Assembly (NCBI RefSeq): GCF_009914755.1
Contig: NC_060928.1
Length of the DNA: 64,000 nucleotides
Reading direction: 5' to 3' (one strand)
Source: the human T2T-CHM13v2.0 reference genome, Homo sapiens
Positions 12,351-56,410 of this stretch are shown piece by piece. Every line of letters begins with the position of its first letter. Within the stretch, counting starts at the first letter, position 1. Both the position numbers and the translations under genes were made by a program. A model generated the notes under the pieces. It searched no databases and had not been told where the DNA came from. It was given only the letters and a program-made list of their open reading frames with translations.

Positions 12351-12430
12351 CTGTGATAATAATGTTCTCAGAGCAAGAAGGCGACCTTGACTTGCTGCTT
12401 CATGTAGTGGTGATCGATCTGCCCAGGAAC
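12351..12430 (-). CDS. ASB5: ASB5 coding exon 2 (GSWADRSPLHEAASQGRLLALRTLLSQ, ankyrin repeat)
   Basis: Long polypyrimidine tract with acceptor GACAG| and donor CAG|GTAATA. 80 nt, phase 1 to 0. SPLHEAA ankyrin motif. Confidence 0.97.
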
Positions 12431-17800: not shown

Positions 17801-18624
17801 TATTAAATATCTTATCTTTCAATATCAATATGCTTTATATCAGAGAGATTTACGAGCCATCTCAAGACCAAACAAGATATAAATATCTTTATGTGCAACT
17901 ACTTAGTAATTTTATAATTGTGTTAGACTTTCATTGAGTGTCTAAGATAAAAGCAATGCAACCCTTACTTTAAAAAATGTGTAATTTAACTCTTTAGGAT
18001 AAATTATTCAGTGTGAAATTGTTTTACAAAGTGTCTGTAACTTTCACCATGCTAATCAAATTCCTAGTTATTCTCTCTCTGTAGCTACACAGGAGGTGGC
18101 TATGCCTATATTTAGAAGCAACTCTTGTTCCCAGACATCTGGTATATAATTTACAGGGAGAGAGCCTGCCCTGTTTTGTAAACACCACATTGCTAGAGAA
18201 AAACACTCACATTTTTATATCTATGCGATTTTGTAAGGTTTGATACCATACCTAAATCACCATCTCCCCACGGCACTTCACACCAGCCACTGTCGAGGTA
18301 AATCCGACTCATAATTTTTTTTTTTTATCAGCAAGAAAAGAAAAAATCACTTGTCAGTTGCCAGTTCTGTTCGGCCATTTTAAGGAGCTCCAAGCTCCTT
18401 GTAATATGACCGTCGGCCTCCAAAAAGAAAAACAGCTTTTGAAAAGGTGATTTATTTCCAAAATTGCTTTTTCTTATTGATCACTCCTCTTTATTTGAGA
18501 AACTGCTGGTCCTAACTTATTTTTTCTCCTTACAGTATGTGCCCTGAATTGAAATAAAAGCACTACAATTAGACCTCTGTCCATGGCCATGGAAAAACCA
18601 TATTATTGTTATAAATGTCTTTGT

Positions 18625-18966
18625 GGCCGGGGGTGGGTGGCTTATGCCTGTAACCCCAGCTGCTCTGGAGGCTGAGGCTGAAGGATCATTTGAGCCCAGG
18701 AGTTTGAGATCAGCCTGGGCAACATAGTGAGAACTTGTCTCTGCAAAAAAAAAAAAAAAAAATGTAAATAAAAAAAATTATCTGGGCATGGTGGCATGTC
18801 CCTGTAAATGCCAGCTACTAGGGAAGTCCTGAGATGAGAAGATCGCTAGAGCCCGAGTTTGAGGCTGCAGTGAGCTGTGTTCCCAATACTGCACTCCAGC
18901 TTGGGCAACAGAGTGAGACTCTGTCTCAAAACAAAACAAAACAAAACAAAACAAATAAACAAAAAA
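18625..18966 (+). mobile_element. Alu (AluJ-like) with (AAAAC)n tail
   Basis: GGATCATTTGAGCCCAGGAGTTTGAG and GAGGCTGCAGTGAGCT AluJ features. Confidence 0.92.
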
Positions 18967-23107: not shown

Positions 23108-24386
23108 CTATATTTTCAGTATATTTAAGGCATGTCGAAAAAAAATTGTATAGAAAATTAGATTTTTGACATAAAACGATAGCTTATTTTCAACTTCCTT
23201 TAGAGTCTCTATCTGCATTGAAGATATGTGAGACTCATCCAGGTGAATTAGTTTACTTAATTTTTTTTTTTTAATTTTTGCCATTGACACAGTTCTATTA
23301 TGTTGCTAATGCCTGCGGTTTAGTGCATAGTTAGGTAACTTACCCTTCATTTAAGAAATGACAGGATTGTCTTTATTTCTTTAATAATTGCATTCCTTCT
23401 GGACTTTAAGGACCATGAAATGATGAGACTACTTATTGCTGCTCCCCGCCTCTAGCACAGTGTCTAGCACGCAGTCAACACTGGATAGGCATTTGTTGAA
23501 TTGTTGAATTGTCTTCTTTGTAGTCAACCACTTTTTTCCTTGCTGGTATATTTCTCAATTTTGTTGTTAATTATGTTGTTGAAAAGTAACAAAAAGGAAA
23601 TGTGTATTGGGGTGGGGAGTAGGGATCCAGTTGCTTTCTCAAACTTTGAAAGAAATTATAGTGTTTTAGCCTATTTGAAAATATGCTTTGTATGTTTGAA
23701 AAACATAATCATTTATAATAACATTCTTCAAGCTCCAGCTATTACATAGTAAATATAACTCTTACAATCTTGGGGGGCAAGAGTCATTTTCTCTCTGAAT
23801 CTGCATTTTCGACCCTTAAATTTATCATCTATCATACTGGTGTTCTACTAAAACTTATGCAAATGTATGGATATTCCTTTTTAAAAATAATTCCTCCTCT
23901 TTGGTACTGTGCTCATTCTCCTTTCTATCTTTCATAGTTTTCTATCATTATAATTAATGACTTCGTGTCAGAACACTTTTAGGAAGTTGCTCTACTCATT
24001 TTCTTGCCTAAATCATCCTCCTACTTGATGTCTAATTTACATGATTTAAAATTTCCATATTGCCTGTAAACAGTCTTTTCCTGCTTAATAGCATCTTTCC
24101 TTGTTTCCATACCAACTTAGAAACACCTGCTGAAACAGAAAGGTAAACAAACCAGAGTCTAAGAGTTTGCAGTCATGTTTAATATACAGTCACAAAAATG
24201 AGTCAGCCGATGCAGTTTCCATACACGAAAAGGCAAGAATACAGAGCAGTCCTTTGCCATGCCATACATGTGCATTTCAATCCGCATTCTGGAAAGCACC
24301 CGCAGTTTAAAGTTAGTATTTGCAAAAACAGGCCAATGTGGTTTATTTCAGGACACTGACAGATTTGAAATGGCTGCTATACTAAC

Positions 24387-24510
24387 CTTGACTGGTCAGA
24401 ATACCCCAGCTAGCTTTTCGTTTAGAAGAACATTCCTCTATACTCACTAGCCTTCTTTTCGTGAGGACCTGCTTAATGCAGTTCATTTCAACAGCAATAT
24501 CTGCGGACAT
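24387..24510 (-). CDS. ASB5: Candidate alternative first coding exon of ASB5 (MSADIAVEMNCIKQVLTKRRLVSIEECSSKRKASWGILTSQ)
   Basis: ATG with A at -3, 41 open codons + 1 nt, donor CAAG|GTTAGT. Phase 1 matches exon 2. Sequence appears unique. Confidence 0.65.
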
Positions 24511-25031
24511 AGTTTGGTTGACGTTTTTTGTCTGTGACAACCAGGTGTCATAAGTGCAAATGCTCTAGCAAGAAGAAATATCAGCGTCTGGATTTCTAAC
24601 TATTTTTTCCTTCCCTTCAGACTTTCACAAAGGTTCCTGTGTGCTAACTTGAGATGTCTTCAACATTGAACTCTATTCAGAAACACTTGGATCAGGGCTG
24701 GTAGGTGCAATGTGGAGGATGGGCCAGAAATGCTGGAGCATTTTCTATTTTTAAAGCAGAGACATGCTGCAGCCGGAAGTCTTTAACTATTTGTGTGATA
24801 TAGAAAGTAAAAAGTGGGTATAATTGCTTTTCCTAGTCGAAACAGAATAGAAATGAGCTCTATCGTTAAAAGATAAAAGCCTATTTAAAGAACCTACAAA
24901 TCAATCAAATGTAAAATTGCCTGTTGATAATGACTGCAGACAGAATATTGCAGCCAGAAAGCTCAGTAGTGATCAGTGACTAGGTTAGCCTTTCTCCTTC
25001 ATCCTCAGGAGTAAGTATGAGATGTGCCTTA

Positions 25032-28553: not shown

Positions 28554-28590
28554 CTGTTACTGCCAAATTTCCACCATTGCAAAGAGGCAT
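28554..28590 (-). CDS. ASB5: Candidate alternative N-terminal exon of ASB5 (MPLCNGGNLAVT)
   Basis: ATG, 12 codons + 1 nt, donor CAG|GTAAAA. Phase 1 matches exon 2 and would give 276 aa. Confidence 0.55.
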
Positions 28591-28859
28591 CTGGAAGGGG
28601 CCATTATTCAGTTCTCAGAGGCTGTGCTGCTTTGGGTTTCTTTACAAGGCCGTGCCCTCATACAACCTTTAGGAGTCATATCTGAGCCCAGTTCTTGCTC
28701 CATTTTATTTTTTATTCTACTTTACTTAAACATGAGTACCTAAATCTGTTGGCCTAGTGATAGTGAGTGAGGGCAGATGAGGTCTGAGAGTAAGCCTGAC
28801 ATAAGCATCTTGGAAAAAAAATTGAGCAGTTGTTATCCAACAGTTAACCTTTGTTCCAA

Positions 28860-29336
28860 AGGTCATTCATTTATTGTATAAAGGTTGCTGGGAAACTACA
28901 GACGTCAATCTTGTGGTGAGTGATATCTCCTCTCCTATAGGAGAGAATGGAGTGGTGATCTGGAAGCTATGGGGAAAAAAATCATGAACGTGTCTGTCTA
29001 TCACCATCTTTGTCCTCAATGACGTAGATGACCTAAGGAGAAAAGGGTGGCCTTCACCACAAAACTGCACATACACCTGGGACGCGGAAGGGTCAAAGGG
29101 GAAGATCCGGTGACAGGAGGACAAGCTTTACCTCCGCATGTTGCTAAATGACCAGTGACGTGTGCAAACACCCACGGCACCTGGTACCCTACAGCAAAAT
29201 TCAGAATCCCAGCTGCAGCTTCCTCACACTGCCATCCAACTCTTACATTATCTTTTCTTCCAATCTCACTTGGAACAACACAAAAAAGGGAAACAGATCC
29301 AACATAACCAAGCTGACACAACACGGAGCCACCACA
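28860..29336 (-). mobile_element. Probable old ERVL-type LTR fragment
   Basis: Minus-strand start TGTGGTGGCTCCGTGTTGTGTCAGCTTGG resembles ERVL LTR 5' ends. Family and far boundary are uncertain. Confidence 0.35.
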
Positions 29337-30012
29337 GATGACAAGGTTACTTATACTTGACTTCATGACAGGAGTTTGGGACTAGTCTCTTGTTTTCTCT
29401 ATTATTGTGGTTCACATACTAGAAATATTTCCACCTGTAATGCTTGGTAGAAGTCACTAGTAAAATTATCTGCTCTTGGAGTTCTTCTGAGGAATTTTAA
29501 AAACTACTTATACATATACATATTTGAATTTACAACTATTTAAGTTCTCTCTTCTAAACTCAGCTTAGATCAGTTGTGTTATTTAGAAAATTGTCCATTT
29601 TGTCTTAATATTCAAAATTATTGGCATTATGTTGTTATATAATAACCACTTATGGTAAAAATGTCAGCGGTATCTGCTATTATAGTCTCTTCCTCAATCC
29701 AGCTGTTGTTTATTTGCACCTCTGTAACAACGACAAGTTTGGACAGAGGTTGTCTGTCCAAAGAACCAGCTTTTGGCTTTGTTGATTCTTCCTGTCTTCA
29801 TTTTTCACTTTATTAATTTCTGCTTGCAGCTTTCTTATTTTCTTCATCAATTTGTGGAAAGTGAGTGTTTTATTCTTTACATAATTTTGATTTCTTGACC
29901 TATGAGTTACTTTAAAATATTTTTTCTTAACTTCCAAATAATTTTTTTTCTAATTACATTTTGTTATTGATTTCTACATTAAAATTACTGAGGCCAGTTA
30001 TATGCTCCCTAT

Positions 30013-44010: not shown

Positions 44011-47000
44011 AAAACTATGTTTTGGTCACTTCCTGAAGAGACCAGCTGGCAGAAAGGAGCAGAGAAAATAAAGGAAAAAAGACAAATCCCTGAGCTAGCT
44101 GACTCAGTTCTTTGTTGTGAATGTTGACATTAGATTTTGTCTTTCACTATCAGCTGCCAGAGATTATGAGAAAATAAAATAAAAGGACAAGAGGCTTTTA
44201 AGAAGGATGGTTTGGCAAAGGACGTTACTATCTGGTGCTTTGTTGTGTGCTGGAGGTTAAGCAGCTTTGACTCTTTCTGTGGCACTGACTATAATGGAGA
44301 GCCAAGAATTTGCCAAGACTTGCCATTGTTACATGCTGTTATGTAACTCATCAAAGAGTTCTTTCAGAGCAACCCAGGCTTTCCCACAGGACAACCATGA
44401 CCAGGTATTTGACCAAATGCGCCCAGGAAAACATTTCTGTTTGAAGAATTTCTGTCAAGAAAAGTTTCTTGGACAGAATAAGATTGTAGAAGAAATTTCT
44501 GCAAGTAATTTTAAAACTCCCAACTCTGAACTAGCCTTCCCAACCTTAACATTCTGCCTAGGTCCTGGTCACACTAGCCAAACTCTGCATTACTTTGCTC
44601 CAATCCTATGGAACAGCTCAGAATGTCTTACTTTCCTTTGTATCAGAGGGAGTACCTGCAAAAACATACCTTGAGTCTTAAAGGCATAAAATAAATGGCT
44701 TATTTTTGGCAAGCATTGTATTTTCTGTCTTTTAAAATAGTTATAGTTCTCCAATAACTTTCCTTTTATATAGAAAGGGCCAGTCGACAAGGCGCATGGA
44801 TGGCACAGAGACCTCATGCACACGAGGCTTTGATTTTGCCACTCACCCCGTGTTTATTCGGTGAGAAAGACCATGGAGTGGAAGAGGAATCTGGGTTGGA
44901 ATTCTGCTTCTTCTAGTTACTACCCGAAAAAACTGACAACTTACTAAGCTCTTTAGAGCTTCAGTGAATTGTTACATTGGCAGATAAATCAAGCTGACCT
45001 CTGAAACGATCTAACCAAAGAGCTAATATGATCCTGGGGTAGAACACCTGCTTAGTAGACAGGTCCTGGTATTATATTATGTGCTTGTAGTAACCGTTTG
45101 GCAAACATAGTTAATTTATTACAATGTTAATGTTACTATCTTTTCCTACTGATGCTTTCCTGTGTTACTAAATTATAGGCAATTCTATCCTGTTTTTGAA
45201 TTTTTTAAAAAAGTATGATATAGAAAGTTAACATCTATAGAGTGTTGACTTTACGCCAGACACTGTGGCAAGTGATTAAGGTAATAAATTATATTTCATA
45301 TAAGATTTCTATGAATCCGCTCAAGTAGTATCAATACCTCCATTAAACTGAGATCTACAGACGTTAAGCAACTTTCCTGAGATCACACAGCTAGAAAATG
45401 CTACAACCATGACAGAACAATTTATGTCTGGGTCAAACATTGTGCAATATGCAAGGGGTTTTTAACCTCCATATTCTCTTTTTTTAAGGTCTTTTATTCA
45501 TTCTACAACCATTTGCTGACTTTCTTCAATATCCAAAGCAGTGTTTTTCCTGCATGCCATTGAGAGTTATTTCAAGGACCAAGTGACTTTGGTCTAGGAA
45601 ATTGAAATTTTCTTCTCCATAATAAAAGCAGTTTTGACTGATCTACTTTTCTTGTAGCCCGTTAAAATTCAGTCTCTAGTCAAGTATTTGGCAAGAATCA
45701 CAGGTTTGTCTCATGAGCCTTAGGTTAATTATAAAGTACATAGTTTTTTTTCTTCTACTTAAAAACATTGTCTTTCAAAAGTAATGGAATATTCCTTATA
45801 ATGCTATAGAACCAGGTTTGTAGTCATTTTGTACATGCTTTCTAAAATGGAGCTTTAAACCTACAAAATCTCGATCACTGAATTCAATTAAGTTTCATAA
45901 ATAAAAATAAAAATGCTTTTTCAAAAAAATAGTATCATCAGTTTCAGTAGACTCCAAGTACTAAGCTTACTTAAACTGATTTCTTTTCACATTCTTGGAA
46001 TGTCACACCAATTAGATATGCAACTATTGTTTTGGGACTTAATGTTCAGTAAAGGTTTTTTTTCTCCAGCCAGAGCCAGTCTTGTTTTGTTGGTTTATTT
46101 GAGTAATGGTAAGTAGCCAGAAAACTTAGCCCCTATACTAGATTCTACTTGAGCATTTTCATCATAACTATGGTGGGTGGGAGAGAGAGAGAAGGAGAGA
46201 GATGCTTACAGTTTCATTTCACTCCTTTTCTTTTAGTTCTTGGAGTTACAATGAAGTATTTATTCTTTCCTGGATGCAACAGATCTGCGACCTGTGTATT
46301 TGAGCTCTAAAGAATTAGCACTTTTTCCTTTTCCAAATTCATGATTCTAGATCACAGGTCAAGATGGAAGTAAGACACAAAACTTCCAAATTCAAGAATT
46401 CATTAGGTGCATCATTTCATTCTAAAAATGAACTATTACTTTTACTTGATGAATGACGGAAACACCATTTCTCTAGTGAATGAAGTAGAATTTGGAAAAC
46501 ATAAGTGCACATAAATCTCCTCAGTGGCTAATCAAAGATGTATTTGGTTGCTACTGAGGGGTTGAGTCACTACCAAAGTCACCGCTGTTTCCATGGTCAT
46601 TATTTAACAGCTCTTGTAGTGCATTGAGTCTGCTTTAGAAGAAGTCTTGAGACTGCTTTAGAAGAAGGATTGCTTCCTTTCTCACTTTGACAGCCTTACC
46701 TGATTTAATTCACAAGGGACTTTGCGGCATTATGATGGTGAAGAGCAGATTTCCAATGGATGGGCCTTCACTTAAATTTTATCATTGTCAGCTTTCATTT
46801 AAATCACACTGCACACTTGACAGCTGAGGTGAGCCAGTGCTTCTATTTAAAAACATGAATGGCATTTTGGTGTTAAATTTCAGTTTGTTTGTACTCTACC
46901 CATAGTTTAAGACTATAAGCCTTCTGGAAAGAGTATGTGTATTTCTGAAGGTTTCTATTTTACTCAGTGGGTACCGGTGGCATGGAAATTTTAGCTGCCC

Positions 47001-55998: not shown

Positions 55999-56194
55999 CT
56001 TGTCCTTGGGTTACTCCATAAAATTCAGCTGCTATCCTTGCCGCTTCCTTGCGGTTGCCTTTCACTATGTAGAAATGACTGAGGATGGCAAGGCTGATTT
56101 TCACAAAAAGCTTAAAACAGAACAGCGAAAGTATTGTAAAGTAGACATTGGATAATTGTTGAGCAAACGGCCGATTTTCTTCTAACACCGACAT
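55999..56194 (-). CDS. ASB5: ASB5 coding exon 1 (MSVLEENRPF...FYGVTQGQ, hydrophobic N-terminal segment)
   Basis: ATG at 56194. 196 nt (65 codons + 1) ending at donor CAAG|GTATGT. The peptide is recognisable as the ASB5 N-terminus, with KGNRKEAARIA also seen in ASB11. Confidence 0.97.
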
Positions 56195-56269
56195 TGCTGC
56201 AGAAGAATCTGCGGCGGTCTTTAGTTGGATCCAAGTCTCAAATGTGCCTGGCTCTCGTCCGGGATGCTC

Positions 56270-56410
56270 CTGAACAGCTGGTCCTGAGGAAAGAAAATAT
56301 CAGCTGGTAGTGATGCCTACAGCTCAAAATATTTATACACTCCATAAAAGTTCTTCGCAAACTCCTATTGGTCTGAAAATATTCCATGGAAGCAATTGCA
56401 TCACGTGTCA
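56270..56410 (-). promoter_or_regulatory. ASB5 core promoter / 5' UTR
   Basis: Minus-strand TATAAA at 56337-56332 (predicts a start near 56305-56310) and CCAAT at 56371-56367. CAGCTG E-boxes at 56275-56280 and 56301-56306, CACGTG at 56402-56407. Confidence 0.7.

What the first reader, a model, noticed from the sequence alone, without database searches (positions are those of the whole stretch)
24387..24510. Hidden alternative first exon giving ASB5 a basic, non-hydrophobic N-terminus
Seen: on the minus strand, in unique intron-1 sequence, ACT-ATG opens 41 stop-free codons (MSADIAVEMNCIKQVLTKRRLVSIEECSSKRKASWGILTSQ). It ends CAA G|GTTAGT, the same phase-1 CAAG|GT junction as canonical exon 1, and would read straight into GSWADRSPLH to give 305 aa (297 aa from the second Met). 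It is too short to appear in the supplied ORF track. Its ending WGILTSQ-G resembles exon 1's YGVTQGQ-G. Known: ASB proteins are Elongin BC-Cullin5 substrate receptors. Inference: this exon swaps the hydrophobic segment (VYFTILSLFCFKLFVKISLAILSHFYIV) for two basic clusters, KRR-x9-KRK, spaced like a bipartite NLS. Promoter choice could therefore move the same E3 receptor from membrane to nucleus or cytosol. It may already be annotated in some species.
Basis: partly seen in the sequence, partly recalled or inferred. Interest (0 to 1): 0.85.

Follow-up and report, generated by a model that had tools for sequence, protein, structure and literature searches.

The report
Conserved unannotated alternative ASB5 first exon
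A short stretch inside the first intron of human ASB5 is the intact human copy of an alternative protein-coding first exon shared by mammals, birds and lizards, which gives this ubiquitin-ligase adaptor a different, non-hydrophobic front end and is absent from the supplied human RefSeq gene table.

Summary
On the minus strand an ATG at 24510 opens 41 codons that end at 24387 before AAG|GTTAGT, in phase 1. Read into exon 2 (12430) this gives 305 aa.

Sequence alone does not prove it. A matched ORF-plus-donor sits at 44671-44817, and control phases and the antisense strand give similar counts.

Homology decides it. The 42-aa peptide hits 7 of 7 candidates at E 3e-14 to 6.5e-10. A profile of it hits 19 proteins. 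All carry ASB5 sequence or consist of the exon ORF alone, and they come from rodents, pangolins, a seal, dugong, platypus, lizards and birds. Ten are full-length models of 300-306 aa that start with this peptide and continue into exon 2; nine are named ASB5 isoform X2 or X3 and one 'isoform 1-T1'. The matched control ORF finds nothing.

M1, KR, RKASW and LTSQG are invariant in 21 of 21 sequences.

The exon is therefore real and ancient. It is annotated by prediction in other species but is missing from the supplied human RefSeq table. Human transcription, the start site and the proposed nuclear targeting remain untested. The claimed resemblance to exon 1 is not supported.

The parts
24387..24510 (-). 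Coding part of the alternative first coding exon: ATG to last exon base, 41 codons plus 1 nt, phase 1
   Evidence: Searches give the sequence and frame. Orthologous peptides appear in 19 database proteins plus P0021. The peptide is single copy in the window's own genome (E 5.3e-20; next best E 1.8).
24508..24510 (-). Start codon in the context CAAACTATGT (A at -3)
   Evidence: The Met is invariant in 21 of 21 aligned sequences.
24385..24386 (-). GT of the 5' splice site AAG|GTTAGT, 8 of 9 matches to the recalled MAG|GTRAGT consensus
   Evidence: The junction residues ...LTSQ-G followed by SWADR are present in 15 of 19 database proteins.
24409..24459 (-). Conserved motif block K18 R19 - x10 - K30 R31 K32 A33 S34: a bipartite-NLS-like spacing, with RKASW resembling a basophilic-kinase site
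   Evidence: KR-x10-[K/E]RKAS is found in 21 of 21 sequences, KR-x10-KRKAS in 19 of 21, and RKASW in 21 of 21. Function is inferred only.
24484..24486 (-). Second in-frame ATG (M9), which would give 297 aa
   Evidence: This position is A, E, G or R in the other species, so this Met is not conserved.
24511..24567 (-). Upstream in-frame stretch of 18 open codons, closed by TAG at 24567-24565. Presumed 5' UTR or promoter-proximal sequence
   Evidence: Read as a cassette after exon 1, each of the 17 upstream AG acceptors (exon starts 24531-24697) meets a stop.
24549..24551 (-). Upstream out-of-frame ATG opening a 22-codon uORF that overlaps the main ATG. It matters only if the start site lies upstream of it
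12351..12430 (-). ASB5 exon 2, the acceptor exon. It enters in phase 1 and begins G|GT TCC TGG (GSW...)
   Evidence: and the hub's RefSeq table.

Best explanation
Window 24387-24510 (minus strand) is the intact human orthologue of an ancient, amniote-wide alternative first coding exon of ASB5. Translation starts at the exon's own ATG. The exon is spliced through a phase-1 GT donor to exon 2, giving a 305-aa protein with the same ankyrin-repeat and SOCS-box body. The 65-residue canonical N-terminus, which contains a hydrophobic stretch, is replaced by a 41-residue unstructured tail. That tail carries the invariant block KR-x10-(K)RKASW-G-[IV]LTSQ. The transcript most likely starts at an internal promoter in intron 1. 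A non-coding upstream exon spliced in just 5' of the ATG cannot be excluded. The likely consequence (inferred) is an ASB5-Elongin BC-Cullin 5 receptor without the hydrophobic anchor. It would be soluble, and its tail would supply a short linear motif: a bipartite nuclear import signal and/or a basophilic-kinase phosphosite. Shown here: the sequence features, the orthology, the deep conservation and the predicted disorder. Inferred: human expression, the start site, localisation and motif function.
For: (1) The anatomy is intact in human: ATG, 41 open codons, AAG|GTTAGT donor and the same phase as exon 1. (2) The peptide alone finds 7 of 7 candidates at E 2.9e-14 to 6.5e-10, with 71-88% identity and 100% coverage. 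A profile of 8 such peptides finds 19 proteins at E <= 0.1 among 1087 candidates. Of these, 12 are named ASB5 or Asb5, 5 are 'hypothetical protein' and 2 are unnamed. Seventeen contain ASB5 ankyrin/SOCS sequence. The other two (P0013, P0015) end at the exon's last residue; P0013 also carries the canonical exon-1 N-terminus. (3) In 13 of the 19 the peptide is the very N-terminus, and in 15 of the 19 it is followed by SWADRSPLH. Eleven have both features, and ten of those are full-length models of 300-306 aa. (4) The taxa are rodents, pangolins, a seal, dugong, platypus, four lizards and four birds. (5) All length differences in the alignment are whole codons. M1, K18, R19, R31-W35 and L38-G42 are invariant in 21 of 21 sequences. 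(6) Human-to-other identity in the exon is 51-88%, against 75-93% for the rest of the protein (P0005, P0013, P0015 and P0017 are left out of these ranges because they are partial or did not align over the exon). This is ordinary coding-exon conservation. (7) P0005 is a contiguous 169-aa ORF on a 1544-nt contig. It joins this exon to exons 2-4, which only a spliced RNA-derived sequence can give. (8) The matched control pseudo-exon at 44671-44817 has no homologue. (9) An exhaustive phmmer search of 1,835,955,588 representatives finds only 3 hits at E <= 0.001, all the same exon. (10) The human peptide differs from the placental majority consensus at only 3 positions. A neutral-drift simulation gives P = 0.006 at 0.10 substitutions per site, and 0.0001 at 0.15, for staying intact with at most 3 changes. 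(11) AlphaFold2 on the Chinchilla X2 model gives residues 1-45 a pLDDT of 32-39 with no secondary structure, while the ankyrin core scores 84-96. (12) The maximum 19-residue Kyte-Doolittle hydropathy is 0.35 for this exon against 2.07 for canonical exon 1.
Against: The supplied human RefSeq table (RS_2025_08, 4 transcripts) has no exon here. None of the RefSeq enhancer or regulatory marks falls on 24387-24800. No human or primate protein appeared as a cluster representative. This is not informative, because the human virtual isoform is 90-91% identical to P0003, P0008 and P0010 and could sit inside those 90% clusters. I had no RNA-seq, CAGE, Ribo-seq, proteomic or multi-species DNA data. The non-human models are computational predictions and I could not see their RNA support. 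The donor has T at +3, which I recall as the rarest base there. If the start site is upstream of 24551, a uORF overlaps the start codon. At a neutral divergence of 0.03 or less, an unused exon would still look like this with P about 0.43. Four literature searches found no description of this isoform.
Confidence: 0.82

Rival explanations
1. The exon is real and used in other amniotes but is no longer used in human or apes. It would be a recently silenced relic that has not yet decayed.
For: It is absent from the human RefSeq table supplied with the finding, although human transcript data are very deep. The simulation shows that an unused exon stays intact with at most 3 residue changes with P 0.43 at 0.03 substitutions per site and 0.09 at 0.06. 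No human literature was found.
Against: Every functional element is intact in human: ATG with A at -3, the ORF, the GT donor and all 21 invariant residues. The human peptide is essentially the placental consensus. A narrowly expressed promoter, for example one active only in a rare cell type, could easily be missing from RefSeq.
Confidence: 0.12
2. It is mainly an internal cassette or poison exon included between exon 1 and exon 2, as several ab initio models draw it, and not a first coding exon.
For: In 6 of 19 database proteins the peptide is internal. Four of them carry it after the canonical exon-1 N-terminus (Smutsia, Mirounga, Phrynosoma, Columba), and two have other upstream sequence (Mimus, and the unnamed P0015). 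A fair pyrimidine tract precedes the AGs that would start an exon at 24562 or 24564 (14 and 15 of 20 pyrimidines).
Against: In human, 0 of 17 AG acceptors within 190 nt upstream give an open cassette reading after exon 1; all 17 meet a stop. The five named internal placements are 'hypothetical protein' or unreviewed genome-project models. The ten full-length models of 300-306 aa all start at the Met. The Met is invariant in 21 of 21 sequences, which a purely internal exon would not need.
Confidence: 0.04
3. It is a chance ORF next to a decoy splice donor in intron 1, or a conserved non-coding element that happens to be open.
For: Sequence criteria alone are not significant. A second case with 49 codons lies in the same intron, and the control phases and strand give 0, 0, 0, 1 and 1.
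Against: Homology reaches E 4.6e-24. The peptide is present at the start of ASB5 models from placentals to lizards, with only whole-codon length changes, an invariant Met and an invariant junction residue. The control ORF has no homologue. P0005 shows the exon spliced to exons 2-4 in a contiguous ORF.
Confidence: 0.02

Closest known systems
[quoted passage not shown]
   Same: The N-terminal peptide is the same (51-88% identity to human). The total length is 305 aa in seven of the nine, 306 in Arvicanthis and 300 in platypus. All share the ...LTSQ-G/SWADR junction and the same ankyrin and SOCS-box body.
   Different: These are predictions in other species. The human RefSeq table supplied has no such transcript. 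Human has an extra Met at position 9.
The two other human intron-1 first exons in RefSeq (28554-29520 and 18252-18762)
   Same: Both are alternative first exons with phase-1 donors into exon 2, and both remove the hydrophobic canonical N-terminus. In a script they give 276 aa and 284 aa.
   Different: Their private N-termini are only 12 and 20 residues long. Their donors match the recalled consensus at 7 of 9 and 6 of 9 positions, against 8 of 9 here. I did not test their conservation. They carry no KR...KRKASW block.
ASB11, the closest paralogue group (ASB5/9/11/13), described as an ER-associated Cul5 ligase
   Same: It belongs to the same ankyrin plus SOCS-box family. A review passage states that ASB11 is ER-associated and targets ribophorin 1 (PMC4812663, passages read). 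PMC8594701 (passages read) notes strong conservation among ASB5, ASB11 and ASB9.
   Different: No paralogous copy of this exon exists in the human genome at protein level (only the locus itself; the next hits have E 1.8 and 5.9). That the hydrophobic N-terminus is the ER anchor is my recollection. The primary paper was not held.
Classical bipartite nuclear localisation signal (nucleoplasmin type), with the rule recalled as (K/R)(K/R)-X10-12-(K/R)3of5
   Same: The pattern is met in 19 of 21 sequences, and the 10-residue spacer is never gapped. It lies in a predicted disordered tail.
   Different: This is a pattern match only. The two seal-like sequences have ERKAS (2 basic of 5). No import assay or importin binding was tested.

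Membership tests
Orthologue of the ASB5 'isoform X2' alternative first coding exon | Significant sequence similarity to the N-terminal peptide of annotated X2 models | tested here: met
   E 2.9e-14 to 6.5e-10, 71-88% identity and 100% coverage; 19 hits down to birds and platypus.
Orthologue of the ASB5 'isoform X2' alternative first coding exon | [quoted passage not shown] | tested here: met
   and the hub table (exon 1 at 55999-56308, exon 2 at 12351-12430, minus strand). The position in other species' genomes was not checked because no DNA was available.
Orthologue of the ASB5 'isoform X2' alternative first coding exon | Own ATG, an open frame and a phase-1 GT donor that reads into exon 2 | tested here: met
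   M1 and G42 are invariant in 21 of 21 sequences.
Orthologue of the ASB5 'isoform X2' alternative first coding exon | Transcribed and spliced to exon 2 in human | not testable with these tools
   No RNA-seq, CAGE or EST resource was available. The only transcript-like evidence is the non-human P0005 (1544-nt contig, exons joined).
ASB family Cul5 substrate receptor (ankyrin repeats plus SOCS box) | Ankyrin repeats followed by a C-terminal SOCS box | tested here: met
   on P0003: Ank E 6.2e-42 and SOCS_box E 5.6e-12. The human canonical CDS was reproduced at 329 aa. The alternative peptide itself matches no Pfam family (0 families).
Classical bipartite NLS | Two basic clusters, (K/R)(K/R)-X10-12-(K/R)3of5 (rule recalled) | tested here: met
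   19 of 21 sequences, including human. The 2 seal-like sequences fail.
Classical bipartite NLS | Importin-alpha-dependent nuclear import that is lost on mutating the basic clusters | not testable with these tools
   This is a wet-lab assay and was not attempted.
Basophilic (PKA-type) phosphosite, R-[RK]-x-S-hydrophobic (consensus recalled) | Pattern present and conserved | tested here: met
   RKASW is present in 21 of 21 sequences. Phosphorylation itself is not testable here.
In-frame cassette exon between exons 1 and 2 | An AG acceptor that gives an open reading from exon 1 through to exon 2 | tested here: not met
   0 of 17 upstream AGs in human, for exon starts 24531-24697. All 17 readings contain a stop.
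Duplicate of canonical exon 1 | Detectable sequence similarity to the exon-1 peptide | tested here: not met
   no BLASTP alignment at E <= 100.

The most novel reading that the evidence does not exclude
ASB5 has had two promoter-selected forms since before mammals and reptiles split. One carries a hydrophobic anchor. The other is soluble, and its invariant KR-x10-KRKASW tail is a kinase-gated bipartite nuclear import signal. The same Cullin-5 receptor would then work on different substrates in the nucleus. The human gene keeps this second form, but the supplied human annotation and all published ASB5 work that I could search have overlooked it.
Probability: 0.2. Interest if true: 0.6.

Novelty: new member of a known kind. 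Interest (0 to 1): 0.45.

Why it matters
ASB5 is a muscle and satellite-cell E3 substrate receptor. In what I read, no substrate or localisation for it was described. A 2026 mouse knockout (PMC12990408, abstract and passages read) reports it as dispensable for muscle development and regeneration, and annotates only 'transcript isoform 1'. That knockout deletes part of exon 4, which both forms share, so it should remove both.

A second N-terminal form conserved across amniotes (more than 300 million years by my recalled dating), with a 12-residue near-invariant motif, implies a selected function that studies of the 329-aa form would miss. If the exon is used in human, the supplied RefSeq annotation is incomplete. 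Variants in 24387-24510 would then be coding rather than deep intronic. Expression constructs, antibodies and isoform-level quantification for ASB5 would need to take it into account.

The finding is still an ordinary kind of thing, an alternative-promoter N-terminal isoform, and it is already predicted in other species' annotations.

Tried and rejected
1. Chance pseudo-exon. Sequence statistics were inconclusive. This reading was rejected on homology and on the empty matched control.

2. No alignment was found.

3. In-frame cassette use in human. None of the 17 upstream acceptors gives an open reading.

4. Repeat-derived sequence, or a paralogous exon in ASB9, ASB11 or ASB13. The peptide is single copy in the window's own genome. 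The profile version of that search was not accepted by the tool, and I left it there.

5. MEF2-like site YTAWWWWTAR at 24745-24754 as promoter evidence. The window has 27 matches against 22.9 expected, so this is uninformative.

6. Known domain in the tail. The peptide matches 0 Pfam families.

7. Literature.
- 'ASB5' with 'isoform': 49 papers, 20 listed. I read passages of PMC8594701, PMC2923625, PMC12990408 and PMC11345569.
- 'ASB5' with 'alternative first exon': 1 paper, which only lists ASB5 promoter P1 as muscle-specific.
- A six-term search listed no paper containing ASB5 among its top 25.
- Three peptide strings: 0 papers.
- None of these describes this exon. Supplementary tables were not opened and may hold transcript-level data. 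This applies especially to Table S1 of PMC2923625.

8. The primary ASB11 ER paper (PMC3900953) is not held. I used only a review passage.

Full report
**Observation.** On the minus strand an ATG at 24510-24508 opens 41 sense codons. The last exon base is G at 24387, and it is followed by GT at 24386-24385 in the context AAG|GTTAGT. The segment is 124 nt long, so it ends in phase 1. Exon 2 begins at 12430 behind a long pyrimidine tract and reads G|GT TCC TGG.... A script rebuilt the canonical CDS from the hub's coordinates and gave 329 aa. Replacing exon 1 with the candidate in the script gives 305 aa, or 297 aa from the second Met.

**Is it more than chance?** On sequence alone, no. Intron 1 is 43,568 nt with 37% G+C. 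Its sense strand has 13 sites that match at least 8 of 9 positions of the recalled donor consensus MAG|GTRAGT. Five of the 13 end a phase-1 ATG ORF, and two of those ORFs reach 41 codons: the candidate, and one ending at 44670 with 49 codons. Three hundred dinucleotide shuffles give a mean of 0.16 such cases, and 1% of shuffles reach two or more. Real-sequence controls are less kind. The other two sense phases give 0 and 0, and the three antisense phases give 0, 1 and 1. At 7 of 9 matches the three sense phases give 3, 3 and 3. The annotated human alternative exons have donors matching only 7 of 9 and 6 of 9 positions. A reader scanning this intron would therefore meet such an 'exon' by chance.

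**What decides it.**
- The 42-residue translation (P0001) was searched against about 5.8 billion proteins, restricted to longer proteins. It returned 7 hits out of 7 candidates, at E 2.9e-14 to 6.5e-10, 71-88% identity and 100% coverage.
- Five of the seven are named models or genome-project proteins of Octodon, Chinchilla, Manis pentadactyla, Arvicanthis (a cluster of 34 members) and others.
- A profile of eight such peptides (A1) found 19 proteins at E <= 0.1 among 1087 candidates. The new ones are Perognathus (X3), Dugong, platypus (X2, 300 aa), the lizards Podarcis, Tiliqua and Elgaria (X2, 305 aa) and Phrynosoma, the birds Pitangus, Callipepla, Columba and Mimus, and one more unnamed record.
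- Twelve of the 19 are named ASB5 or Asb5, five are 'hypothetical protein' and two are unnamed. Seventeen contain ASB5 ankyrin/SOCS sequence. P0013 and P0015 end at the exon's last residue.
- The matched control, the 49-codon pseudo-exon at 44671-44817, found no candidate at all with the same settings.
- An exhaustive phmmer pass over 1,835,955,588 cluster representatives found only three hits at E <= 0.001. All three are the same exon: P0021 (42 aa, 79% identity), P0013 and P0015.
- In the human genome the peptide is single copy. The locus itself scores E 5.3e-20, and the next matches score E 1.8 and 5.9.

**Anatomy of the conservation.**
- The peptide is the very N-terminus in 13 of the 19 database proteins. 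It is followed by SWADRSPLH in 15 of the 19. Eleven have both features, and ten of those are full-length at 300-306 aa.
- All length differences are whole codons: +1 in Arvicanthis, -3 in four birds, -7 in the bird-like P0015 and -5 in platypus.
- M1, K18, R19, R31-K32-A33-S34-W35 and L38-T39-S40-Q41-G42 are identical in 21 of 21 sequences. The first dozen residues vary.
- Identity of the human exon to the others is 51-88%, against 75-93% for the rest of the protein. Four records are left out of these ranges: the partial records P0005, P0013 and P0015, and P0017, which did not align over the exon.
- P0005 is a contiguous 169-aa ORF on a 1544-nt contig. It runs from this exon through exons 2-4 and then diverges exactly at the end of exon 4. 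A contiguous ORF across four exons can only come from spliced RNA or a retrocopy of it. This is the one piece of transcript-like evidence I have, and it is not human.

**First exon or cassette?** Four ab initio models (Smutsia, Mirounga, Phrynosoma, Columba) place the peptide after canonical exon 1, and Mimus extends it upstream. In human this cannot encode protein. Each of the 17 AG acceptors within 190 nt upstream gives a reading with a stop, and an in-frame TAG lies at 24567-24565. Together with the invariant Met, this favours translation from the exon's own ATG. I cannot tell whether the transcript starts just upstream or splices in from a non-coding exon. If the start site lies upstream of 24551, a 22-codon uORF overlaps the start codon.

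**Human lineage.** The human peptide differs from the placental majority consensus at three positions: M9, V15 and V22. Two of these variants also occur in other species. A simple neutral-drift simulation of the 126 nt gives the probability of keeping the ATG, the frame and the GT with at most 3 residue changes. That probability is 0.43 at 0.03 substitutions per site, 0.09 at 0.06, 0.006 at 0.10 and 0.0001 at 0.15. From recalled rates, the human branch since the placental ancestor is about 0.1-0.15. The exon was therefore under purifying selection for most of that time, but a loss of use within apes cannot be excluded.

**Likely function (inferred).**
- The maximum 19-residue Kyte-Doolittle hydropathy is 2.07 for canonical exon 1 and 0.35 for the new exon. 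Both have a net charge of +3.
- AlphaFold2 was run on the Chinchilla X2 model with a 10-sequence alignment. It gives residues 1-45 a pLDDT of 32-39 with no secondary structure, and gives the ankyrin core 84-96. The alignment is shallow, so this is only suggestive of disorder.
- The peptide matches no Pfam family.
- KR-x10-KRKAS fits the recalled bipartite-NLS rule in 19 of 21 sequences. RKASW fits a recalled basophilic-kinase consensus in 21 of 21.
- The most economical reading is a soluble ASB5 form with a disordered tail that carries a short linear motif for nuclear import and/or phospho-regulation.
- That the hydrophobic canonical N-terminus is a membrane anchor rests on hydropathy and on analogy with ASB11, which a review calls ER-associated (PMC4812663, passage read). 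The primary paper was not held.

**Comparison with what is known.**
- Alternative first exons that remove the hydrophobic N-terminus are already annotated for human ASB5. Exon 28554-29520 gives 276 aa and exon 18252-18762 gives 284 aa in my script.
- The exon studied here is annotated by prediction in many other species, but not in the human RefSeq table supplied.
- I could not query GENCODE, and primate entries could be hidden inside 90%-identity clusters.
- Four literature searches and passages from four ASB5 papers gave no description of this isoform. Supplementary tables were not opened.

**Verdict.** This is a real, ancient alternative coding exon, and its human copy is intact. It is a new member of a known kind, not a new mechanism. 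Human expression and the localisation switch remain to be shown.

Noticed in passing
window 44671-44817 (-), donor AAG|GTATGT after 44670: A second 'hidden first exon' by the same sequence criteria: a 49-codon ATG ORF in phase 1 with a donor matching 8 of 9 positions. It has no protein homologue. It served as the matched negative control and is probably a chance pseudo-exon.
   Followed up: yes
window 28554-29520 (-) and 18252-18762 (-): The two RefSeq alternative first exons each carry a short in-frame ATG ORF (12 and 20 residues) that reads into exon 2, giving 276 and 284 aa. Both transcripts have several upstream ATGs. Their cross-species conservation was not tested and may be much weaker than that of the unannotated exon.
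   Followed up: partly
window 24549-24551 (-): An upstream out-of-frame ATG opens a 22-codon uORF that overlaps the 24510 start codon. It would dampen translation if the start site lies upstream of it.
   Followed up: no
window 24745-24754: A perfect match to the recalled MEF2 consensus YTAWWWWTAR lies about 240 nt upstream of the ATG. The window holds 27 such matches against 22.9 expected, so it is not evidence by itself. ASB5 is listed as a conserved MEF2A target gene in chicken and mouse myoblasts (PMC11345569, abstract and passage read), with no site given.
   Followed up: partly
P0018 (Columba) residues 66-82 and P0019 (Mimus) residues 27-43: In two distant birds, the 17 residues read in frame upstream of the exon's Met are nearly identical (DQSTCTNDRQAFLEKQ[V/I]). 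In mammals the 6-7 codons before the Met also align (RNISHA, RNASHA, and human KNVNQT). The sequence just 5' of the ATG is therefore conserved too, as expected for a UTR or core promoter.
   Followed up: no
P0005 (unnamed, 169 aa, 1544-nt contig): This record joins the alternative exon to exons 2-4 and then reads into what corresponds to the intron after exon 4. It looks like a partly spliced, transcript-derived contig from a carnivore-like animal. Its N-terminal peptide differs at 3 positions from the seal model P0006.
   Followed up: partly
window 24484-24486 (-): The second in-frame Met (M9) is present only in the human sequence among the 21 compared.
   Followed up: yes
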